Below are positions 1,250 to 6,871 of a DNA stretch of 39,760 bases, one piece after another. Position numbers and translations under genes: made by a program. Origin of the DNA: a virus (lineage: Duplodnaviria; Heunggongvirae; Uroviricota; Caudoviricetes); the IMG/VR virus record IMGVR_UViG_2711768002_000014; one strand, 5' to 3'. A model generated the notes under the pieces. The model had not been told where the DNA came from. It was given only the letters and a program-made list of their open reading frames with translations, and did not search any database. Position 1 is the first letter of the stretch; the number at the start of each line of letters is the position of its first letter.

Positions 1250-1531
1250 TTAGTGATGTTCTTTGCCCTTCTGTTTGCCTGTTCTGACCTGTTCCCACTC
1301 GATACGTCCTTCTTCTCGTCTTTTGTCTATGTATTCCGCAAGATCCTGAATATTGATGCAACGTTTTGCTTTTTGTGATGTACCGATGCGATATGTAGGT
1401 ACAGGCAACTTACAAGCGTTTGCTTTTGCTTCTGCTGTGGCTGGACTCATACCAAAGTATTTTTGACTAACTGCTGAGAGTTCAATGTTTGGGGTATTGA
1501 ATTCAGCCATCAGTAAAAACAAGGTATTCAT
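1250..1531 (-). CDS. PrtN-family / excisionase-like winged-helix DNA-binding protein
   Basis: 93-aa ORF; resembles remembered PrtN/Xis-like small proteins (YFGMSPATAEAKA...LPVPTYRIG); last gene of the leftward operon. Confidence 0.45.
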   Translation of the reverse strand: MNTLFLLMAEFNTPNIELSAVSQKYFGMSPATAEAKANACKLPVPTYRIGTSQKAKRCINIQDLAEYIDKRREEGRIEWEQVRTGKQKGKEHH

Positions 1532-2538: not shown

Positions 2539-3363
2539 TCAGGCGGTGAAAGTACCAATAAAGGTTTCTACTTTGCTGTCTTTGAATTTCTCAACAAGCA
2601 GATCACGAAATTCGTTAGCCATTTCTTCCTGTACCGCTTCCAGCTGAATAATGCGCAGAACCAGTACAGGACGATCGCCAGTGATAATGCTGAGGCGTAA
2701 TTTAAACGGACGTTCTTTCAGACCTTCAAACGGAACGCATTTAAATTCAAATGCCACTGGCATAATGTCTTTGGTCTTCGCTTCGACAGACTCCATCAGG
2801 GAGCGTTTGCCGCTGAAGTCATTATCTTCAAAATCAGCGGTCTGGTTCGCTTCAATTGTGATTTTACGGATCGCCGCAGCCGCTTTGGTTGCCTGAATGG
2901 CGTCACCATTAGCATCAAAGCCCACAAGGTAGTCGGCCCAGTCTTCAATCCATTCTGCCAGTGACTTCTGGGAGTTACGCTCGCCATTAACAGACAACAG
3001 AGCAGAGAACGGAGCTGTCTTTTTCAGTTTGAGAGTGGCGGTGTTATCTGCGTGACCTGGTTCATCAATAGTACCCAGGTTAAGAACACTGACGGCACGC
3101 ATATTATCAGCATCGATAAAGCAGCGGGTGCCTTCATCTGCAAGATCTTTAGAATAACGAGTAAAGTCATCGATGCTGGCAGTGGAAAGCGCACCACGGA
3201 AACGGAAACGATTTAAATTTAATTTTTCCAGATCATGAATGCGGAAATTCTCAGGCAATGCCACAGCATCGGCACCAATCTTACTGATAATTTCATTAAC
3301 ACCCTGAGCAGAAATAAGGGCATGGATTTGATTAATTGCGGTTGCGTCTAAGTTCTGAGACAT
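2539..3363 (-). CDS. YfdQ-like (DUF2303) conserved prophage protein
   Basis: 274-aa ORF, same length and gene-order context as remembered CPS-53 YfdQ; typical GC and codon usage. Confidence 0.55.
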
Positions 3364-3428
3364 AATAAGTCCTCACTATATAAAGATATTCAGTGATGAG
3401 ATAAATAATCGGTTAATTAAGAACGATA

Positions 3429-3791
3429 TTAATGACCTGCTGCGCGGAGTTTTCCGTCAGGTTCACCGGCAAGAGTCAGTAATTGTCCCTGGTCTTCCTG
3501 CAGAATAGTCAGGCGACCACCGCGATTGACATACATCGGCGTTTCGGTGGTGTCTTCTTCGGAAATTTTCCCGCGGTTAGTCGGGCGAACATATGAGAGT
3601 TTGTGTTTGATTTTCACACGGTTCTCATCAAATGGTTCGATTTCCAGGTTGAGTGAGACCTTACCTTTGGTTTTCGTGTTCATCACACCGGAAGCGACTT
3701 CACTGAGAACTGCGCCGATTTTGGTTTCAAATACGCCGCCGTCCAGCTCCCCAATAAATGCCTGCACATCAGTACTGCGTTCGCTAGCCAT
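3429..3791 (-). CDS. YfdP-like conserved prophage protein (120 aa)
   Basis: ATG at 3789-3791 (minus) preceded by AGGAG about 8 nt upstream; the N-terminal extension in the track ORF is Cys/Arg-rich and unlikely to be coding. Confidence 0.5.
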   Translation of the reverse strand: MASERSTDVQAFIGELDGGVFETKIGAVLSEVASGVMNTKTKGKVSLNLEIEPFDENRVKIKHKLSYVRPTNRGKISEEDTTETPMYVNRGGRLTILQEDQGQLLTLAGEPDGKLRAAGH

Positions 3792-3811
3792 TTTGCTGCT
3801 CCTAATCATAT

Positions 3812-3975
3812 CGACCCTGCAAGGTCGGTTGGTTTCTCCACAAAACAGAGAAGAACACCTGCGGTGGCAGCCGCCCGGATGGATTTGGTTATGAGCCCGT
3901 CGTCCGGTGATGCTCTTCTCTGTTTTGTAAAAAGAGCGGTACCAGCCGGAAGCAAGTGTACAAACTGGTACCGCC
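3812..3975 (-). promoter_or_regulatory. structured 5' leader of the leftward transcript (multiple stem-loops)
   Basis: 14-bp perfect inverted repeat caaaacagagaaga (3841-3854) / tcttctctgttttg (3914-3927); 10-bp inverted repeat gcggtaccag (3945-3954) / ctggtaccgc (3966-3975); cgacc..ggtcg at 3812-3828. Confidence 0.3.
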
Positions 3976-4415
3976 AAAGCAGTGGCTGTTGTGGTGACCG
4001 GTGCTGATCTCCGGCTTGCGGTTATTTCAGACTCTCACGGGCGTTTAATTGCCCCGCCGAACAGCTCTTTTCCGCATTAGCTGCAATGTCTTTCGCGCAT
4101 CAGCCTGCGCATTCACCACAACGCTGAGAGCACTTAGCCAGTTACGGCACCACACTTTGTCGCGGTTCCATAAATGTCCTCATCGTTGCACCCTGGTCTC
4201 TTCCCAGGCGTCAAACCGAATCGCCACGCTGGTTAGGCGTCTTATCAGCATCATCATTGACTTGCACATTCCGGCTACCTGGTTTGTTTGCCCGAGCAAG
4301 GAGTGGATTGTCCCCTTTAACGTCCCCAGACCGCTAACGACGCATGTGCCATACGCCGTGTTACAACCAAATTTTGTTTAATCTTGCCTGTGCTGTGTTT
4401 CTTTTAGATACATTA

Positions 4416-4432
4416 TGTATCCCAAAGGTACA
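4416..4432. promoter_or_regulatory. putative left operator (OL-like) half-site pair TGTATC-N5-GGTACA
   Basis: Same motif as the palindrome between repressor and cro; lies just beyond the repressor 3' end, where a pL operator is expected. Confidence 0.4.
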
Positions 4433-4443
4433 TTGTCAAGTAT

Positions 4444-4465
4444 AAAAAAACCTGCCGAAGCAGGT
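4444..4465 (-). terminator. rho-independent terminator downstream of the repressor gene
   Basis: cctgc-cgaag-cagg hairpin flanked by an A7 run (a T-run on the minus-strand transcript). Confidence 0.5.
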
Positions 4466-4477
4466 TATAAATATTGA

Positions 4478-5152
4478 TTAGGCCTTTATTATGTATCTTC
4501 TTGGTTTTCCTGAGAAAATCACTGTACCAATTATAGAGCAATTACCGTTAATCTTAATGTAAGGCTCAGGCCAGTTTGGGTTTAATGCTTTGAGATAACG
4601 CTGTGTTCCATCTTCTATCAACCGCTTGAAGGTGGTTTCGCCTGTATCGTGCATCAATGCAATAACGTCGTCACCGTGGCAGGCAGGGACTTCAGGATCA
4701 ACAAAAATCATGTCTCCCGGGCGGTACTCATCAATCATTGAATCACCAATCACCCGCAAGATATAAGTCATTTCGCCACAGGGTACAGGGCAGGGATAAG
4801 TTTCTGCTGTGCTCAAATCAACCTCAGAATAGCCAACTTCTTTCCATGCTCCGGCCTGTACCCATGATATGACAGGGACTAACGTTATTTGTTTGTTAGT
4901 GATTGAAACGTCAGGTTTTTTTGTGATGTTCGTTGTCTGGTGTTCTTGATCAAGCCATCCGACAGGCAGGTCGAAACATTTTTCGATGTGCCGTGCCATG
5001 CTGTCACCGATATTTTTAGTTGCACCATCTCCCATAAACCTGCTGGTCTGGGTTGGCTCGCGATCAATCATGGTGGCAAAGGAAGAATTCCCGCCAACAC
5101 CATCTCTCAGTTTTCTGGCGTTAGACCGCCGGATGTCATGGACTGTTTTCAT
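4478..5152 (-). CDS. CI-like prophage repressor (N-terminal HTH, C-terminal S24 LexA-like peptidase)
   Basis: 224 aa; C-terminal domain with the GDSM serine motif and a downstream Lys (FKRL); divergent from the cro-like gene across an operator-containing spacer. Confidence 0.85.
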   Translation of the reverse strand: MKTVHDIRRSNARKLRDGVGGNSSFATMIDREPTQTSRFMGDGATKNIGDSMARHIEKCFDLPVGWLDQEHQTTNITKKPDVSITNKQITLVPVISWVQAGAWKEVGYSEVDLSTAETYPCPVPCGEMTYILRVIGDSMIDEYRPGDMIFVDPEVPACHGDDVIALMHDTGETTFKRLIEDGTQRYLKALNPNWPEPYIKINGNCSIIGTVIFSGKPRRYIIKA

Positions 5153-5169
5153 AAAGAAATTAAAACCTT

Positions 5170-5186
5170 TGTACCGATAAGGTACA
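5170..5186. promoter_or_regulatory. operator: perfect palindrome TGTACC-gataa-GGTACA
   Basis: 17-bp dyad in the 90-bp repressor/cro intergenic region. Confidence 0.5.
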
Positions 5187-5219
5187 AGTATCTTGAAGGT
5201 TCATCTCAATCATGTAATA

Positions 5220-5236
5220 TGTATACCGGAGGTACA
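5220..5236. promoter_or_regulatory. second, weaker operator-like site TGTATA-ccgga-GGTACA
   Basis: Matches the half-site motif with two mismatches; overlaps the cro RBS (GGAGG). Confidence 0.3.
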
Positions 5237-5242
5237 TATTGT

Positions 5243-5443
5243 ATGAAAGCGTATTGGGACTCTTTAACCAAAGAACAGCAGGGTGAGTTGGCCGGAAAAG
5301 TTGGCTCAACACCAGGCTACTTACGGCTGGTTTTCAATGGTTATAAAAAAGCCAGTTTTGTGCTGGCTAAAAAACTTGAGCAATGCACGTCAGGTGCAAT
5401 TACGAAATCTGACTTAAGACCGGATATCTATCCGAAAGATTAA
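5243..5443 (+). CDS. Cro-like regulator (YdaS-like HTH)
   Basis: 66 aa; GGAGG 10 nt upstream of ATG 5243; C-terminal LRPDIYP resembles remembered YdaS-type proteins; positioned opposite the repressor. Confidence 0.65.
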   Translation: MKAYWDSLTKEQQGELAGKVGSTPGYLRLVFNGYKKASFVLAKKLEQCTSGAITKSDLRPDIYPKD

Positions 5444-6038: not shown

Positions 6039-6871
6039 ACAGTTTAACGGCAAATAACCGTTTGTCGCAACAGCTGGTGGTCAGCGTCGCTGAACACCTG
6101 TTGTTACGGCATGAATGCAGATTACCAAATCACCTGGCTGTAAGTAACCACAGAGAACTTTACCTGACTGTGGGGGGCGAGTTGTGCAGGAACTTAACCG
6201 CTGGTTTCGTGACGGAAGAGGACTTTATGTTCATGTTATTCGTTGGGAGCCAGAAACACAGCGCGTTATCTATCTTCGCAAAGACTACCCGCATGAGTGC
6301 TTTAGTCCTTTGTGGAAATTCAGGCGTGATTTTGTTGAGTGTGAAGGACCACCAGCACATTGATTCTGCCATTCCGGGACGTTACACTGTTCAGGCACCT
6401 TATAAAGCGGGTGCCGGGATTGGCGTCCTGGAATTGATCAAGGCGATATATGACGCGCCAGCGTCTTTTTTATCGTCCGCATTTGCTCACATCAAAGTTA
6501 TGGTGGGCTGGGCGGGGGCATCGAAAGATGCGCCGGTTTCCTTGATCACCGGTTACGCCAACCCCGTTCAGTTCACCACCAGCGAAATTGGCGTTTCCGG
6601 TGGTGGAAGTATTTCACCGATCAAGGAGGCTGCCATCATGGCTACTGTCCCAGCCCTCACTCGTCTGAATGATGAAGACTTACATAAACTCAGTTATGTA
6701 ACAACTGCACTACGTGCTCTGCGCAAGGTAACTCTTTCGGATCCGCAGGCACATCAGGTTCTGGTAGAAACCCTTCTTAACTTGCAAGCTGAACGTATTC
6801 GTCTGGCGGATAAGGCTAATTTTCATATTCACCGTCTCCTGAATATCAGCGGAGGGCATCGTCATGCTTAA
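6035..6871 (+). CDS. hypothetical protein; gene model uncertain
   Basis: 278-aa ORF with ATGA overlap to the upstream gene; contains an internal AAGGAGG-ATG (6623-6640) and an alternative frame that reads as protein between 6148 and 6363. Confidence 0.3.
   Translation: MNSLTANNRLSQQLVVSVAEHLLLRHECRLPNHLAVSNHRELYLTVGGELCRNLTAGFVTEEDFMFMLFVGSQKHSALSIFAKTTRMSALVLCGNSGVILLSVKDHQHIDSAIPGRYTVQAPYKAGAGIGVLELIKAIYDAPASFLSSAFAHIKVMVGWAGASKDAPVSLITGYANPVQFTTSEIGVSGGGSISPIKEAAIMATVPALTRLNDEDLHKLSYVTTALRALRKVTLSDPQAHQVLVETLLNLQAERIRLADKANFHIHRLLNISGGHRHA

What the first reader, a model, noticed from the sequence alone, without database searches (positions are those of the whole stretch)
3792..4415. Roughly 600-bp untranslated leader downstream of the putative pL, rich in long stem-loops and lacking an N-like gene
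Between the OL-like operator (about 4416) and the first leftward gene (start 3791) there is no convincing ORF, but there are several long perfect inverted repeats (14-bp arms at 3841-3854 / 3914-3927; 10-bp arms at 3945-3954 / 3966-3975). No N-type antiterminator is evident. This suggests RNA-based regulation, for example a put-like cis-acting antiterminator RNA as in HK022, nut-like sites, an attenuator, or a small RNA.
Basis: partly seen in the sequence, partly recalled or inferred. Interest (0 to 1): 0.55.

Follow-up and report, generated by a model that had tools for sequence, protein, structure and literature searches.

The report
Conserved RNA modules behind phage pL
The apparently empty 600 bases after this prophage's early-left promoter are a chain of conserved folded RNAs (a double-pseudoknot RNA, a tRNA-shaped RNA, a terminator and a long hairpin) that recur in many unrelated enterobacterial phages but match no catalogued RNA family. 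The region is therefore real and probably a new kind of phage RNA unit, but whether it lets transcription through the terminator or makes decoy RNAs is untested.

Summary
Window 3792-4415 has no conserved ORF and no N-like gene, and the reported inverted repeats exist, one at shifted coordinates. It is not a plain leader, though.

On the pL-sense (minus) strand it holds, in order:
1. A 172-nt RNA ('AB', 4360-4189) with five helices and two pseudoknots. Covariation in 26 diverged copies supports it (64 compensatory cells against 19±3 in shuffles). It occurs in at least 128 distinct phage or prophage loci, is unannotated, and has no Rfam hit.
2. A spacer hairpin.
3. A tRNA-like cloverleaf (4122-3988) with near-invariant ends, complementary D-like and T-like loops and a hypervariable centre (127 variants, 56-398 nt). 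It sits where relatives carry a real tRNA-Arg.
4. A strong intrinsic terminator (3975-3927).
5. A conserved long hairpin just before yfdP.

There is no put-family RNA (covariance-model test), no conserved boxA, and no tRNA.

Best reading: a pL-proximal non-coding RNA operon whose terminator gates the early-left genes. AB may act in cis on elongation, like put or EAR in function but not by homology (about 35%). Equally likely, both RNAs are processed and act in trans. These look like new RNA families; their function is untested.

The parts
4412..4439 (-). pL promoter: TTGACA at 4439-4434, 16-nt spacer, CATAAT at 4417-4412. Transcription start inferred at about 4405.
   Evidence: 11 of 12 matches. 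A promoter is annotated at the same place in phage Ayreon.
4396..4432 (.). Operator-like inverted repeat overlapping the -10 box of pL (arms 4396-4413 and 4415-4432).
   Evidence: repeat I2 (18 nt, 78% complementary).
4449..4466 (-). Intrinsic terminator of the cI-like repressor gene (4478-5152). Given for context; it marks the upstream border.
   Evidence: the repressor matches Peptidase_S24.
4188..4360 (-). 'AB' RNA, a 172-nt conserved structured RNA.
- P1: 4358-4353 / 4343-4338
- PK1: 4349-4344 / 4269-4264
- P2: 4330-4326 / 4282-4278
- variable P3
- P4: 4240-4237 / 4229-4226
- PK2: 4234-4231 / 4217-4214
- P5: 4208-4204 / 4196-4192, with loop GAAGAGA
   Evidence: Alignment A1 of 26 diverged copies. 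Pair counts: 95.1% of cells paired against 27-45% for slid controls; 11 pairs and 64 cells with changes on both sides, against 19±3.3 cells in shuffles (0 of 500 reach the observed value). Covariance model R1 gives 142.5 bits and a single copy in the window. No Rfam hit.
4119..4188 (-). Spacer hairpin joining AB to the next module. 5' strand CAACGAUGAGGACAUU (4188-4173), variable tip, 3' strand AAGUGCUCUCAGCGUUG (4135-4119).
   Evidence: Both strands are conserved and the tip is variable in many phages. Compensatory UGAG/CUCA against UAAG/CUUU between the window and SopranoGao was read. The same 3' strand precedes genuine tRNA-Arg genes.
3988..4122 (-). tRNA-like cloverleaf RNA.
- Acceptor-like stem GUGGUGA (4119-4113) / UCACCAC (3997-3991), extended by GUU/AAC
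- D-like arm 4110-4095
- Variable centre 4093-4016
- T-like arm GCCGG-AGAUCAGCA-CCGGU (4015-3997)
   Evidence: repeat I5. Cloverleaf folds. Family searches: 127 distinct units of 56-398 nt. The T-like and D-like stems keep pairing through compensatory variants, and the D-like loop GCUGA is complementary to the T-like loop UCAGC. Not a tRNA by ARAGORN or Rfam.
3927..3975 (-). Intrinsic terminator T1: stem GGCGGUACCAG (3975-3965) / CUGGUACCGC (3945-3936), then UCUUUUUAC (3935-3927).
   Evidence: repeat I4. Hairpin of -21.2 kcal/mol followed by a U-run. The same GGCGGU...ACCGCC-CUUUUUACA design, with different stem sequences, occurs in phiV10, SPN1S and BUCT711, and SfV has a near-identical copy. 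ST64B has a different stem with the same U-tract.
3840..3928 (-). Long branched hairpin of about 25 bp whose 5' arm begins in the U-tract of T1. Candidate RNase III site or mRNA 5' stabiliser.
   Evidence: repeat I1. (z = -5.7 for 3985-3780). Conserved in SfV and ST64B with compensatory changes (pair 80/148 GC to AU, pair 95/119 AU to GC).
3810..3829 (-). Small hairpin CGACCUUGCAGGGUCG, followed by the Shine-Dalgarno AGGAG (about 3802-3798) and the yfdP start codon at 3791-3789.
3429..3791 (-). First early-left gene (YfdP homologue, 120 aa), followed by a DUF2303/YfdQ gene at 2539-3363.

Best explanation
The interval is a non-coding RNA operon inserted between pL and the first early-left gene. 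It is built from RNA modules that move between unrelated enterobacterial phages.

Shown:
- On the pL-sense strand there is a 172-nt double-pseudoknot RNA (AB), a spacer hairpin, a tRNA-shaped cloverleaf, a canonical intrinsic terminator (T1) and a long conserved hairpin. The yfdP ribosome-binding site follows directly.
- The scan found no promoter between T1 and yfdP.

Inferred:
- RNA polymerase starting at about 4405 first makes AB, then the cloverleaf, and a large share of complexes stop at T1. The most abundant early-left product would therefore be a non-coding RNA of about 470 nt.
- That RNA is probably cut at the 5' end of the cloverleaf (4120/4119) by RNase P, because relatives carry a genuine tRNA-Arg behind the same leader sequence in this slot. 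It may also be cut in the spacer hairpin and in the long hairpin (RNase III-type duplexes).
- Only read-through transcripts carry yfdP, yfdQ and the rest of the operon, so T1 works as an attenuator.

Mechanism I commit to for read-through: AB is the 5'-most and most invariant module, and this phage has no N. I propose that AB acts in cis on the transcribing polymerase and makes it resistant to T1 (and to Rho on this long untranslated RNA). That would be the function of HK022 put or Bacillus EAR, achieved with an unrelated fold.

My probabilities: anatomy and RNA nature about 0.9; T1 as a gate about 0.6; AB as a cis antiterminator about 0.35.
For: Structure of AB. 26 copies below 93% identity keep P1, P2, P4, P5 and PK2 through compensatory changes. 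95.1% of cells are paired against 27-45% in slid controls, with 64 compensatory cells against 19±3.3 in shuffles (0 of 500).

Distribution of AB.
- 24 stretches in the one-genome-per-species scan, from about a dozen Enterobacterales genera.
- Found in SfV-like and mEp390-like lambdoid phages, Uetakevirus, P1/P7/D6 and the virulent phage SopranoGao.
- AB always lies on the strand of the downstream genes.

Position of AB. It sits at or near the 5' end of its RNA. It begins 5-50 nt after a -10-like box in L048, L128, L027 and SopranoGao, and about 45 nt after the inferred start in the window. In P1 it begins 2 nt after trnI, which would make it the 5' end of the processed ban mRNA.

Terminators between AB and the next gene.
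- In 105 of 128 distinct AB loci, at least one strong hairpin-plus-U-run lies between AB and the first same-strand ORF. The families of those ORFs differ.
- In phiV10 two canonical terminators follow the tRNA. The U-tract of the second abuts the Shine-Dalgarno sequence, and no promoter was found between them.
- In the window no promoter was found between T1 and yfdP.

No N.

tRNA slot. The same leader, AGUGCUCUCAGCGUU, precedes a real tRNA-Arg(UCU) in Uetakevirus and the cloverleaf in the window.
Against: - No expression data of any kind. The transcription start, termination efficiency and processing are all inferred.
- SfV and ST64B have the same T1, long hairpin and yfdP arrangement with a tRNA-like unit but without AB. 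AB is therefore not indispensable for passing T1, unless their different pL-proximal module substitutes for it.
- In P1 no terminator lies between AB and ban.
- The window has only one AB copy and none behind pR, whereas HK022 has putL and putR.
- AB is embedded in tRNA arrays with processing-type spacer hairpins. That fits a stable, processed, trans-acting RNA at least as well as a cis-acting element.
- Most cloverleaf units, each with its own terminator, occur without AB; only a few of the 90 variants have AB upstream.
- T1 may simply be leaky.
Confidence: 0.45

Rival explanations
1. AB and the cloverleaf are stable, processed, trans-acting RNAs. They might be decoys or mimics that bind a conserved host factor: a tRNA-handling enzyme, a ribosomal protein, a nuclease or a defence protein. 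pL is simply a strong early promoter for them. T1 is their own, partly leaky, terminator, and AB has no effect on read-through.
For: - Many cloverleaf units are stand-alone genes. They start 6-7 nt after a TATAAT box (L188, L212) and end at an intrinsic terminator within 20-40 nt (L154, L158, L206, L211).
- Tandem arrays with conserved spacer hairpins exist (L185, L234), like tRNA arrays.
- AB directly follows or precedes real tRNAs.
- The unpaired segments are nearly invariant across distant phage families, which suggests a conserved binding partner.
- Some cloverleaf centres carry about 40 nt that are 85-87% identical to 16S rRNA.
- Both modules also occur in virulent phages (Magnus, SopranoGao, 6991).
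- SfV and ST64B pass the same T1 without AB.
Against: - No partner is known.
- It does not explain why AB is so regularly followed by terminators and then a same-strand ORF with no visible promoter.
- In P1, and in several cloverleaf loci, the module sits in a 5' UTR directly before a Shine-Dalgarno sequence and ATG.
Confidence: 0.35
2. The modules are only RNA-processing and stability devices. AB would be a 5'-terminal fold that hides the 5' end from RNase E or RppH. The spacer and long hairpins would be RNase III sites. The cloverleaf would be an RNase P handle that defines ends, as mascRNA does for MALAT1.
For: - AB is always at a primary or processed 5' end.
- The duplexes are long and imperfect.
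- The cloverleaf occupies a tRNA slot behind the same leader.
Against: A simple hairpin would be enough for 5' protection. Two pseudoknots and more than 60 invariant positions, together with the extreme conservation of the cloverleaf ends, point to a specific partner.
Confidence: 0.1
3. The conservation reflects a DNA-level function: recombination boundary sequences between phage modules, a single-strand initiation signal, or an integration target.
For: - The leader is a mosaic of blocks shared with different phages.
- GUUG...CAAC junctions flank the modules.
- In P1, AB lies next to the helicase gene ban.
Against: - Helices are kept by G-U wobble and compensatory changes on one strand only, and always on the transcribed strand.
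- The geometry is tRNA-like and the slot is shared with a real tRNA.
- Promoters and terminators bracket the units.
Confidence: 0.05
4. The leader hides a small N-like protein, a put-family RNA, or nut sites.
For: - A 36-aa ORF at 4155-4045 ends in an arginine-rich stretch, RKRAVRRGN.
- CGCUCUUUUUACAA at 3938-3925 resembles boxA.
- The start of AB (ACGGCG...CAUGCGUCG) resembles the start of putL.
Against: - That ORF spans the hypervariable centre of the cloverleaf and is not conserved.
- The put covariance model finds nothing in the window.
- The AB model finds nothing in HK022.
- A canonical boxA follows AB in only 1 of 128 loci.
Confidence: 0.03

Closest known systems
HK022 put RNAs (putL, putR; put-like RNA of HK639)
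   Same: - A cis-transcribed structured RNA just downstream of pL in a lambdoid phage that lacks N.
- It lies upstream of terminators that must be passed to express early genes.
   Different: - put is about 70 nt with two stem-loops; AB is 172 nt with five helices and two pseudoknots.
- No sequence or covariance-model similarity in either direction.
- The window has one copy and none behind pR.
- Antitermination by AB is not demonstrated.
EAR RNA of Bacillus eps operons (processive antitermination RNA)
   Same: A conserved pseudoknotted RNA of about 120-170 nt inside an operon, upstream of intrinsic terminators. This comparison rests on my own knowledge of the family.
   Different: A different phylum and no Rfam match to EAR or any other family. 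Its context is a polysaccharide operon, not a phage.
tRNA mimics: the tmRNA tRNA-like domain, bacterial YrlA Y RNAs, mascRNA
   Same: - Acceptor-like stem stacked on a T-like arm.
- A D-like arm whose loop can pair with the T-like loop.
- The anticodon arm is replaced by something else.
- It occupies an RNase P-type processing slot.
   Different: - The T-like loop is 9 nt (AGAUCAGCA), not the canonical UUCGAAU.
- No encoded CCA, no G3-U70 pair, and no tag reading frame.
- ARAGORN finds no tRNA or tmRNA.
- The 5' and 3' ends are in the acceptor stem, not permuted as in YrlA, and no Ro gene was noticed beside the loci whose annotation I viewed.
- The centre is hypervariable (56-398 nt in total).
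Processed small RNAs in phage early operons: DicF in the Qin dicB operon, and the C4 RNA of P1/P7 (cut by RNase P)
   Same: Non-coding RNAs transcribed as part of a repressor-controlled early operon and released by host RNases. The P1 ban operon carries a dicF-like region, three tRNAs and AB on one transcript.
   Different: AB and the cloverleaf are not known base-pairing sRNAs. They have no similarity to DicF or C4. The window's own C4 and isrK copies lie elsewhere, at 6395-6583.
The lambda pL leader (nutL, RNase III site, N)
   Same: An untranslated leader with a long RNase III-type hairpin shortly before the first gene, and a terminator that must be overcome.
   Different: No N, no boxB, and no conserved boxA. 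The leader is three times longer and filled with autonomous RNA modules.

Membership tests
HK022 put antiterminator RNA | Sequence and structure similarity to putL/putR (about 70 nt, two stem-loops). | tested here: not met
   Covariance model R2, built from 7 put RNAs, scores putL 93.4, HK639 91.7 and putR 44.2 bits. The best hit anywhere in the window is 7.9 bits and lies outside the leader.
HK022 put antiterminator RNA | Copies downstream of both pL and pR. | tested here: not met
   AB model R1 finds a single copy in the 39.7-kb window (4188-4360, minus strand). The next best hit is 9.4 bits.
HK022 put antiterminator RNA | The RNA alone makes RNA polymerase terminator-resistant through the beta' zinc-binding domain. 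| not testable with these tools
   Needs in vitro transcription or rpoC mutants. Feature taken from PMC9378689.
Lambda-type N/nut antitermination | A small arginine-rich N protein encoded as the first pL gene. | tested here: not met
   No conserved ORF and no Pfam hit. The published SfIV comparison says the SfV group lacks N.
Lambda-type N/nut antitermination | boxA (CGCUCUUA / UGCUCUUUAACAA) plus a boxB hairpin in the leader. | tested here: not met
   There is only a boxA-like terminator U-tract at 3938-3925, which is not conserved in SfV, ST64B or phiV10. A canonical boxA follows AB in 1 of 128 loci.
tRNA / tmRNA | Cloverleaf with anticodon arm and canonical T-loop, detected by ARAGORN or the Rfam tRNA model. 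| tested here: not met
   No tRNA or tmRNA in the window. No Rfam tRNA hit at E up to 5 in 3300-5300. The T-like loop has 9 nt and there is no anticodon arm.
tRNA-like RNA (structural mimic) | A 7-bp acceptor-like stem contiguous with a 5-bp T-like stem, a D-like arm, and potential loop-loop contact. | tested here: met
   Folds. Compensatory variants of the T-like stem (GCAGG/CCUGC, GUUGG/CCAAC, GCUGG/CCAGC, GCCGA/UCGGC, GUCGG/CCGAC) and of the D-like stem (GCGUA/UACGU, GCGAA/UUCGC). The D-like loop GCUGA is complementary to the T-like loop UCAGC.
tRNA-like RNA (structural mimic) | Recognition by tRNA enzymes (RNase P, CCA-adding enzyme). | not testable with these tools
   Indirect only: the same 5' leader precedes a real tRNA-Arg in Uetakevirus.
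Any Rfam 15 family | Reaches the gathering score, or at least E up to 5. | tested here: not met
   Whole window at gathering score gives only C4 and isrK at 6395-6583. In 3300-5300 at E up to 5, the only leader hits are sub-threshold matches to the cI terminator region and one 14.6-bit chance hit. Related loci give only tRNAs, C4, isrK and an IS1222 element.
Intrinsic (Rho-independent) terminator | A G+C-rich hairpin immediately followed by a U-run on the transcribed strand. | tested here: met
   Stem 3975-3965 / 3945-3936 (10-11 bp), then UCUUUUUAC. Hairpin of -21.2 kcal/mol. Relatives keep the design with different stem sequences. Efficiency in vivo was not tested.
Metabolite riboswitch | An aptamer linked to an overlapping expression platform and to functionally coherent downstream genes. 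| tested here: not met
   The genes downstream of AB belong to unrelated families: YfdP, coiled-coil proteins, Sf6 gp66-like, DnaB-like Ban and others. A tRNA or cloverleaf separates AB from the terminator.

The most novel reading that the evidence does not exclude
AB is a new class of RNA-only processive antiterminator (or anti-Rho element) used by N-less enterobacterial phages. The cloverleaf is a natural tRNA-shaped scaffold that phages use to display interchangeable RNA cargoes, for example a 16S rRNA helix mimic, as decoys for host factors. Together they would form a mobile 'RNA moron' cassette that has gone unannotated although parts of this leader match in about a third of complete E. 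coli genomes.
Probability: 0.2. Interest if true: 0.9.

Novelty: new variant of a known kind. Interest (0 to 1): 0.7.

Why it matters
How SfV-type lambdoid phages, which lack N, cII and cIII, get past early terminators is not explained in the papers I could read. This leader offers a concrete, mutable candidate element and a terminator against which to test it.

Independently of that question, the analysis defines two structured RNA families that are absent from Rfam 15 and left unannotated by PGAP.
- AB has covariation support.
- Parts of the leader occur in 1851 of 5426 complete E. coli genomes.
- Both modules are also found in P1-like phage-plasmids, epsilon15-like phages, Stx2-converting phages and virulent Klebsiella phages.

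A tRNA-shaped scaffold with near-invariant ends and a hypervariable centre suggests a general phage strategy of presenting RNA mimics. It is also a ready-made natural scaffold for RNA expression.

At the least, annotators should stop calling the small spurious ORFs now deposited over this region.

Tried and rejected
- Rfam. Gathering score on the whole window, and E up to 5 on 3300-5300: nothing real in the leader. Gathering score on 21 related loci: only tRNAs, C4, isrK and an IS element.
- ARAGORN on the window: no tRNA or tmRNA.
- Small proteins. Pfam on all leader ORFs and neighbouring genes gave no N-like hit. The ORF test from the invariant AUG gave 6-96 aa in three frames.
- put homology. 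A 14-nt exact match to HK022 lies inside nun and is chance. The AB model finds nothing in HK022, and the put model finds nothing in the window, SfV, ST64B, mEp390, phiV10 or P1.
- The alternative pL-proximal module of SfV and ST64B shares CAGGAUGA with put but is not a put member by the covariance model. Its folds were uninformative.
- boxA/nut: rejected.
- Riboswitch: rejected because the downstream genes are unrelated.
- Whole-leader folding energy is not significant, so thermodynamics alone would have missed AB.
- A cobalamin-aptamer-like stretch (L178) and an embedded tRNA-like stretch (L225) in cloverleaf centres did not reach Rfam thresholds.
- The window's own cloverleaf centre matches only prophage and plasmid copies and no host RNA.
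- Literature. Searches for the sequences themselves, for tRNA-like phage RNAs and for phiV10 tRNA found no description of either module. The Pas sRNA preprint concerns other loci. Subscription-only papers could not be searched, so prior description cannot be excluded.
Full report
**Setting**

The window is an SfV/mEp460/cdtI/Ayreon-type lambdoid phage.
- A cI-like S24 repressor gene lies at 4478-5152 (minus strand). Its terminator is at 4466-4449.
- A near-consensus leftward promoter follows (TTGACA 4439-4434, CATAAT 4417-4412), and a cro-like gene starts at 5243.
- The first leftward gene, at 3791, is a YfdP homologue. A DUF2303/YfdQ gene follows.
- The closest records are mEp460 (99.1% identity over window 3700-4378), PhiR63_1 (98.8%), and cdtI and Ayreon (about 98%).

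**The observation**

- The inverted repeats are real.
- On the transcribed strand the second repeat is followed by UCUUUUUAC, which makes it an intrinsic terminator.
- The promoter-distal 206 nt are far more structured than shuffles (z = -5.7).
- The promoter-proximal 481 nt are not (z = -0.47).
- No ORF is credible. Depositors disagree on small ORFs on both strands. PGAP annotates nothing under almost every listed match in complete E. coli genomes. Pfam finds nothing. The one invariant AUG opens frames of 6-96 aa that read the conserved bases in all three frames.
- The published SfIV comparison says that SfII, SfV and SfIV lack N, cII and cIII (PMC3851460).

**The leader is a mosaic of blocks shared with unrelated phages**

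A sensitive BLAST search split the interval into separate blocks.
- 3792-3976 is shared with SfV, SfIV and ST64B.
- About 3987-4135 is shared at 95% identity with some P1-like elements.
- 4116-4372 is shared at about 80% identity with epsilon15-like phages (phiV10, TL-2011b, SPN1S, Tyrion) and with the P1, P7 and D6 ban operon.
- A 40-nt core (4095-4134) recurs at over 90% identity in Ackermannviridae, Lastavirus and other Klebsiella, Salmonella, Erwinia and Edwardsiella phages of about 40-60 kb.

In every annotated case the matching strand is the window's minus strand, and it is the sense strand of the local transcription unit.

**Module 1: the AB RNA (4360-4189)**

In the one-genome-per-species scan it hits 24 stretches from about a dozen Enterobacterales genera.
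- The IMG/VR and reference loci gave 110 distinct variants. I aligned 26 copies (25 representatives below 93% identity plus the window copy).
- A hand-built structure has six elements: P1, P2, P4, P5, a pseudoknot between the P1 loop and the invariant AUGUGC, and a pseudoknot between the P4 loop and a downstream GGUG. It is kept in 95.1% of cells, against 27-45% when partners are slid.
- 11 pairs and 64 cells change on both sides, against 19±3.3 cells in shuffles (0 of 500).
- Examples: P1 pair 7/19 switches between GC and AU 11 times. P4 appears as ACGC/GCGU, GGGA/UCCU, UUGA/UCAA and GCGA/UCGC. PK2 switches between CACC/GGUG and AACC/GGUU. P5 switches between CCUCG/CGAGG, CCUGG/CCAGG and GCCGG/CCGGC.
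- PK1 is invariant, so it is neither supported nor contradicted.
- A covariance model finds one copy in the window (142.5 bits) and none in HK022, SfV or ST64B.
- Rfam 15 has no match.

**Module 2: spacer hairpin and tRNA slot**

- AB ends in ...GCAAC. This opens an imperfect hairpin of about 17 bp (4188-4173 with 4135-4119) with a variable tip.
- Its 3' strand, AGUGCUCUCAGCGUU, runs straight into G4119.
- In phiV10, EC.W1-9, SPN1S, BUCT711 and ST512-phi13.3 the same strand runs straight into a genuine tRNA-Arg(UCU).
- Among 128 distinct AB loci, 26 are followed by that tRNA and 35 by the tRNA-like unit. Fifteen P1-like loci are preceded by a tRNA(CAU).

**Module 3: the cloverleaf (4122-3988)**

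- The 10-bp long-range repeat 4113-4122 / 3988-3997 is its acceptor-like stem.
- RNAfold gives a cloverleaf for the smaller variants: an acceptor stem, a 5-bp D-like arm with loop GGCUGA, one or more central arms, and a 5-bp T-like arm with the 9-nt loop AGAUCAGCA directly abutting the acceptor 3' strand. For the window copy, only the centroid structure shows the T-like hairpin.
- Searches with the 5' half and with the 3' half each hit at least 120 viral contigs.
- I extracted 127 distinct units of 56-398 nt, median 124.
- The two ends are almost invariant. The T-like stem shows compensatory variants (GCAGG/CCUGC, GUUGG/CCAAC, GCUGG/CCAGC, GCCGA/UCGGC, GUCGG/CCGAC). So does the D-like stem (GCGUA/UACGU, GCGAA/UUCGC).
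- The D-like loop GCUGA is complementary to the T-like loop UCAGC, which suggests a kissing 'elbow'.
- The centre is hypervariable. In three loci it contains about 40 nt that are 85-87% identical to 16S rRNA.
- Context varies. Some units start 6-7 nt after a TATAAT box and end at a terminator, so they are stand-alone small RNA genes. Some sit in a 5' UTR just before a Shine-Dalgarno sequence and ATG. Some form tandem arrays.
- It is not a tRNA or tmRNA by ARAGORN or Rfam.
- The window's exact variant occurs in 845 E. coli genomes, with 237 of its 952 matches on plasmids, those listed being about 90-100 kb.

**Modules 4 and 5: terminator and long hairpin**

- T1 (3975-3927) has a hairpin of -21 kcal/mol followed by a U-run.
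- The Uetakevirus phages keep the design GGCGGU...ACCGCC-CUUUUUACA with different stem sequences, and SfV has a near-identical copy.
- ST64B has a different stem with the same U-tract.
- The following long hairpin starts inside the U-tract. It is conserved with compensatory changes in SfV and ST64B.
- The scan found no promoter between T1 and yfdP.

**How it may work**

- Across 128 AB loci, 105 have at least one strong hairpin-plus-U-run between AB and the first same-strand ORF. Those ORFs belong to unrelated families.
- In phiV10 the order is promoter, AB, tRNA-Arg, terminator 1, terminator 2 (its U-tract touching the Shine-Dalgarno sequence), then the gene. The scan found no promoter in this stretch, so even the upstream promoter was read by eye.
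- AB tends to sit at the 5' end of its RNA, either primary or processed.
- This is the architecture expected if the 5' module renders the polymerase termination-resistant, as put does in HK022 (PMC9378689). It would also explain how an N-less phage expresses its early-left genes.
- The same data also fit an RNA operon whose products are the point and whose terminator is simply leaky. SfV and ST64B have T1 without AB. P1 has AB without a terminator. There is no AB behind pR. The modules behave like members of tRNA arrays.
- I therefore rate the anatomy as solid, the gate function of T1 as likely, and cis-antitermination by AB at about 0.35, level with the trans-acting-RNA rival.

**Comparison with known systems**

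- A covariance model of seven put RNAs (HK022 putL and putR, HK639, phiEt88, CobraSix, S9-5, UPF_BP1) finds no member in the window or in the SfV, ST64B, mEp390, phiV10 or P1 loci. Membership of the put family is therefore rejected, while a put-like function stays open.
- No conserved boxA or boxB was found.
- The cloverleaf meets the structural definition of a tRNA mimic but differs from tmRNA, YrlA and mascRNA in loop sequence, topology and its variable centre.
- I found no paper describing either module. Subscription-only literature was not searchable.

**Verdict**

The feature is real, non-coding and far from ordinary. It comprises two widespread structured RNA families that I could not find described, plus a terminator, placed where lambda has nutL and N. 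The mechanism is unproven, and the report gives direct tests.

Noticed in passing
window 6395-6471 (+) and 6496-6583 (+): Rfam gathering-score hits to isrK (64.2 bits) and the C4 antisense RNA (82.3 bits) lie inside the pR-operon 'immunity region' ORF. This is a P1/P7 immI-like antirepressor control module in a lambdoid phage (the same in Ayreon).
   Followed up: no
L111, L115, L195 (centres of tRNA-like units): The variable centre contains AGCUAGAUGGUG(A/G)GGUAAUGGCUCACCAUGGCGACGA. About 40 nt of it are 85-87% identical to E. coli 16S rRNA, and every weaker BLAST hit listed is annotated 16S rRNA. This suggests the scaffold can display host-RNA mimics.
   Followed up: partly
L019 about 3500-3400 (-) in SfV; L020 about 2675-2575 (-) in ST64B: A different conserved pL-proximal module of about 70 nt (ACAGGCAGGACGCCCACGAAGUAGCCGCC...CCAGGAUGAUUCG) occupies the place where the window has AB. 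It recurs in SfII, SfIV, phiNP, YeP1, mEp237, SPN3UB, ZF40 and others. It shares CAGGAUGA with put but is not a put member by the covariance model.
   Followed up: partly
L100, +129 after the AB core: A hairpin followed by a perfect rrn-type boxA (UGCUCUUUAACAA) comes directly after AB. This is the only such case among 128 AB loci.
   Followed up: no
L025, L049, L050 (after AB); L007 (after the tRNA-like unit): A further recurrent module, GCCCAGACGAUAUCUGAGUGGCUUAAAAAACAGAUGGGAGCCGGUGGAAUCCCGGCACACAAC, also ends in a hairpin plus ACAAC.
   Followed up: no
window 4203-4197 (AB P5 loop GAAGAGA); L009 1741-1817: The invariant P5 loop is complementary (GAAG/CUUC, AGA/UCU) to the anticodon loop of the tRNA-Arg(UCU) that follows AB in Uetakevirus. 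This may be chance, because AB also occurs without that tRNA.
   Followed up: no
L005 (P1, AF234172 about 69850-70230): A block matching the 5' part of the tRNA-like unit lies on the ban-operon sense strand, at the junction of the oppositely annotated genes upl and plp. Some P1-like elements carry the window's whole unit at 95-99% identity. The upl and plp annotations may deserve a second look.
   Followed up: no
window 1250-1531 (-): A PrtN-like pyocin-activator family protein (PF11112, E = 3e-23) lies near the left end of the early-left operon.
   Followed up: no
L090 (IMG/VR): A tRNA-like unit is interrupted in its centre by a coding insert that begins like SfV orf33. A second 5' half lies about 630 nt downstream, so genes can be inserted inside the scaffold.
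   Followed up: no
L251, L263 (genome contigs): The exact AB 19-mer also hits two metagenome-assembled genomes labelled Oscillospiraceae and Bacillota. These are probably binning contamination by enterobacterial phage DNA.
   Followed up: no
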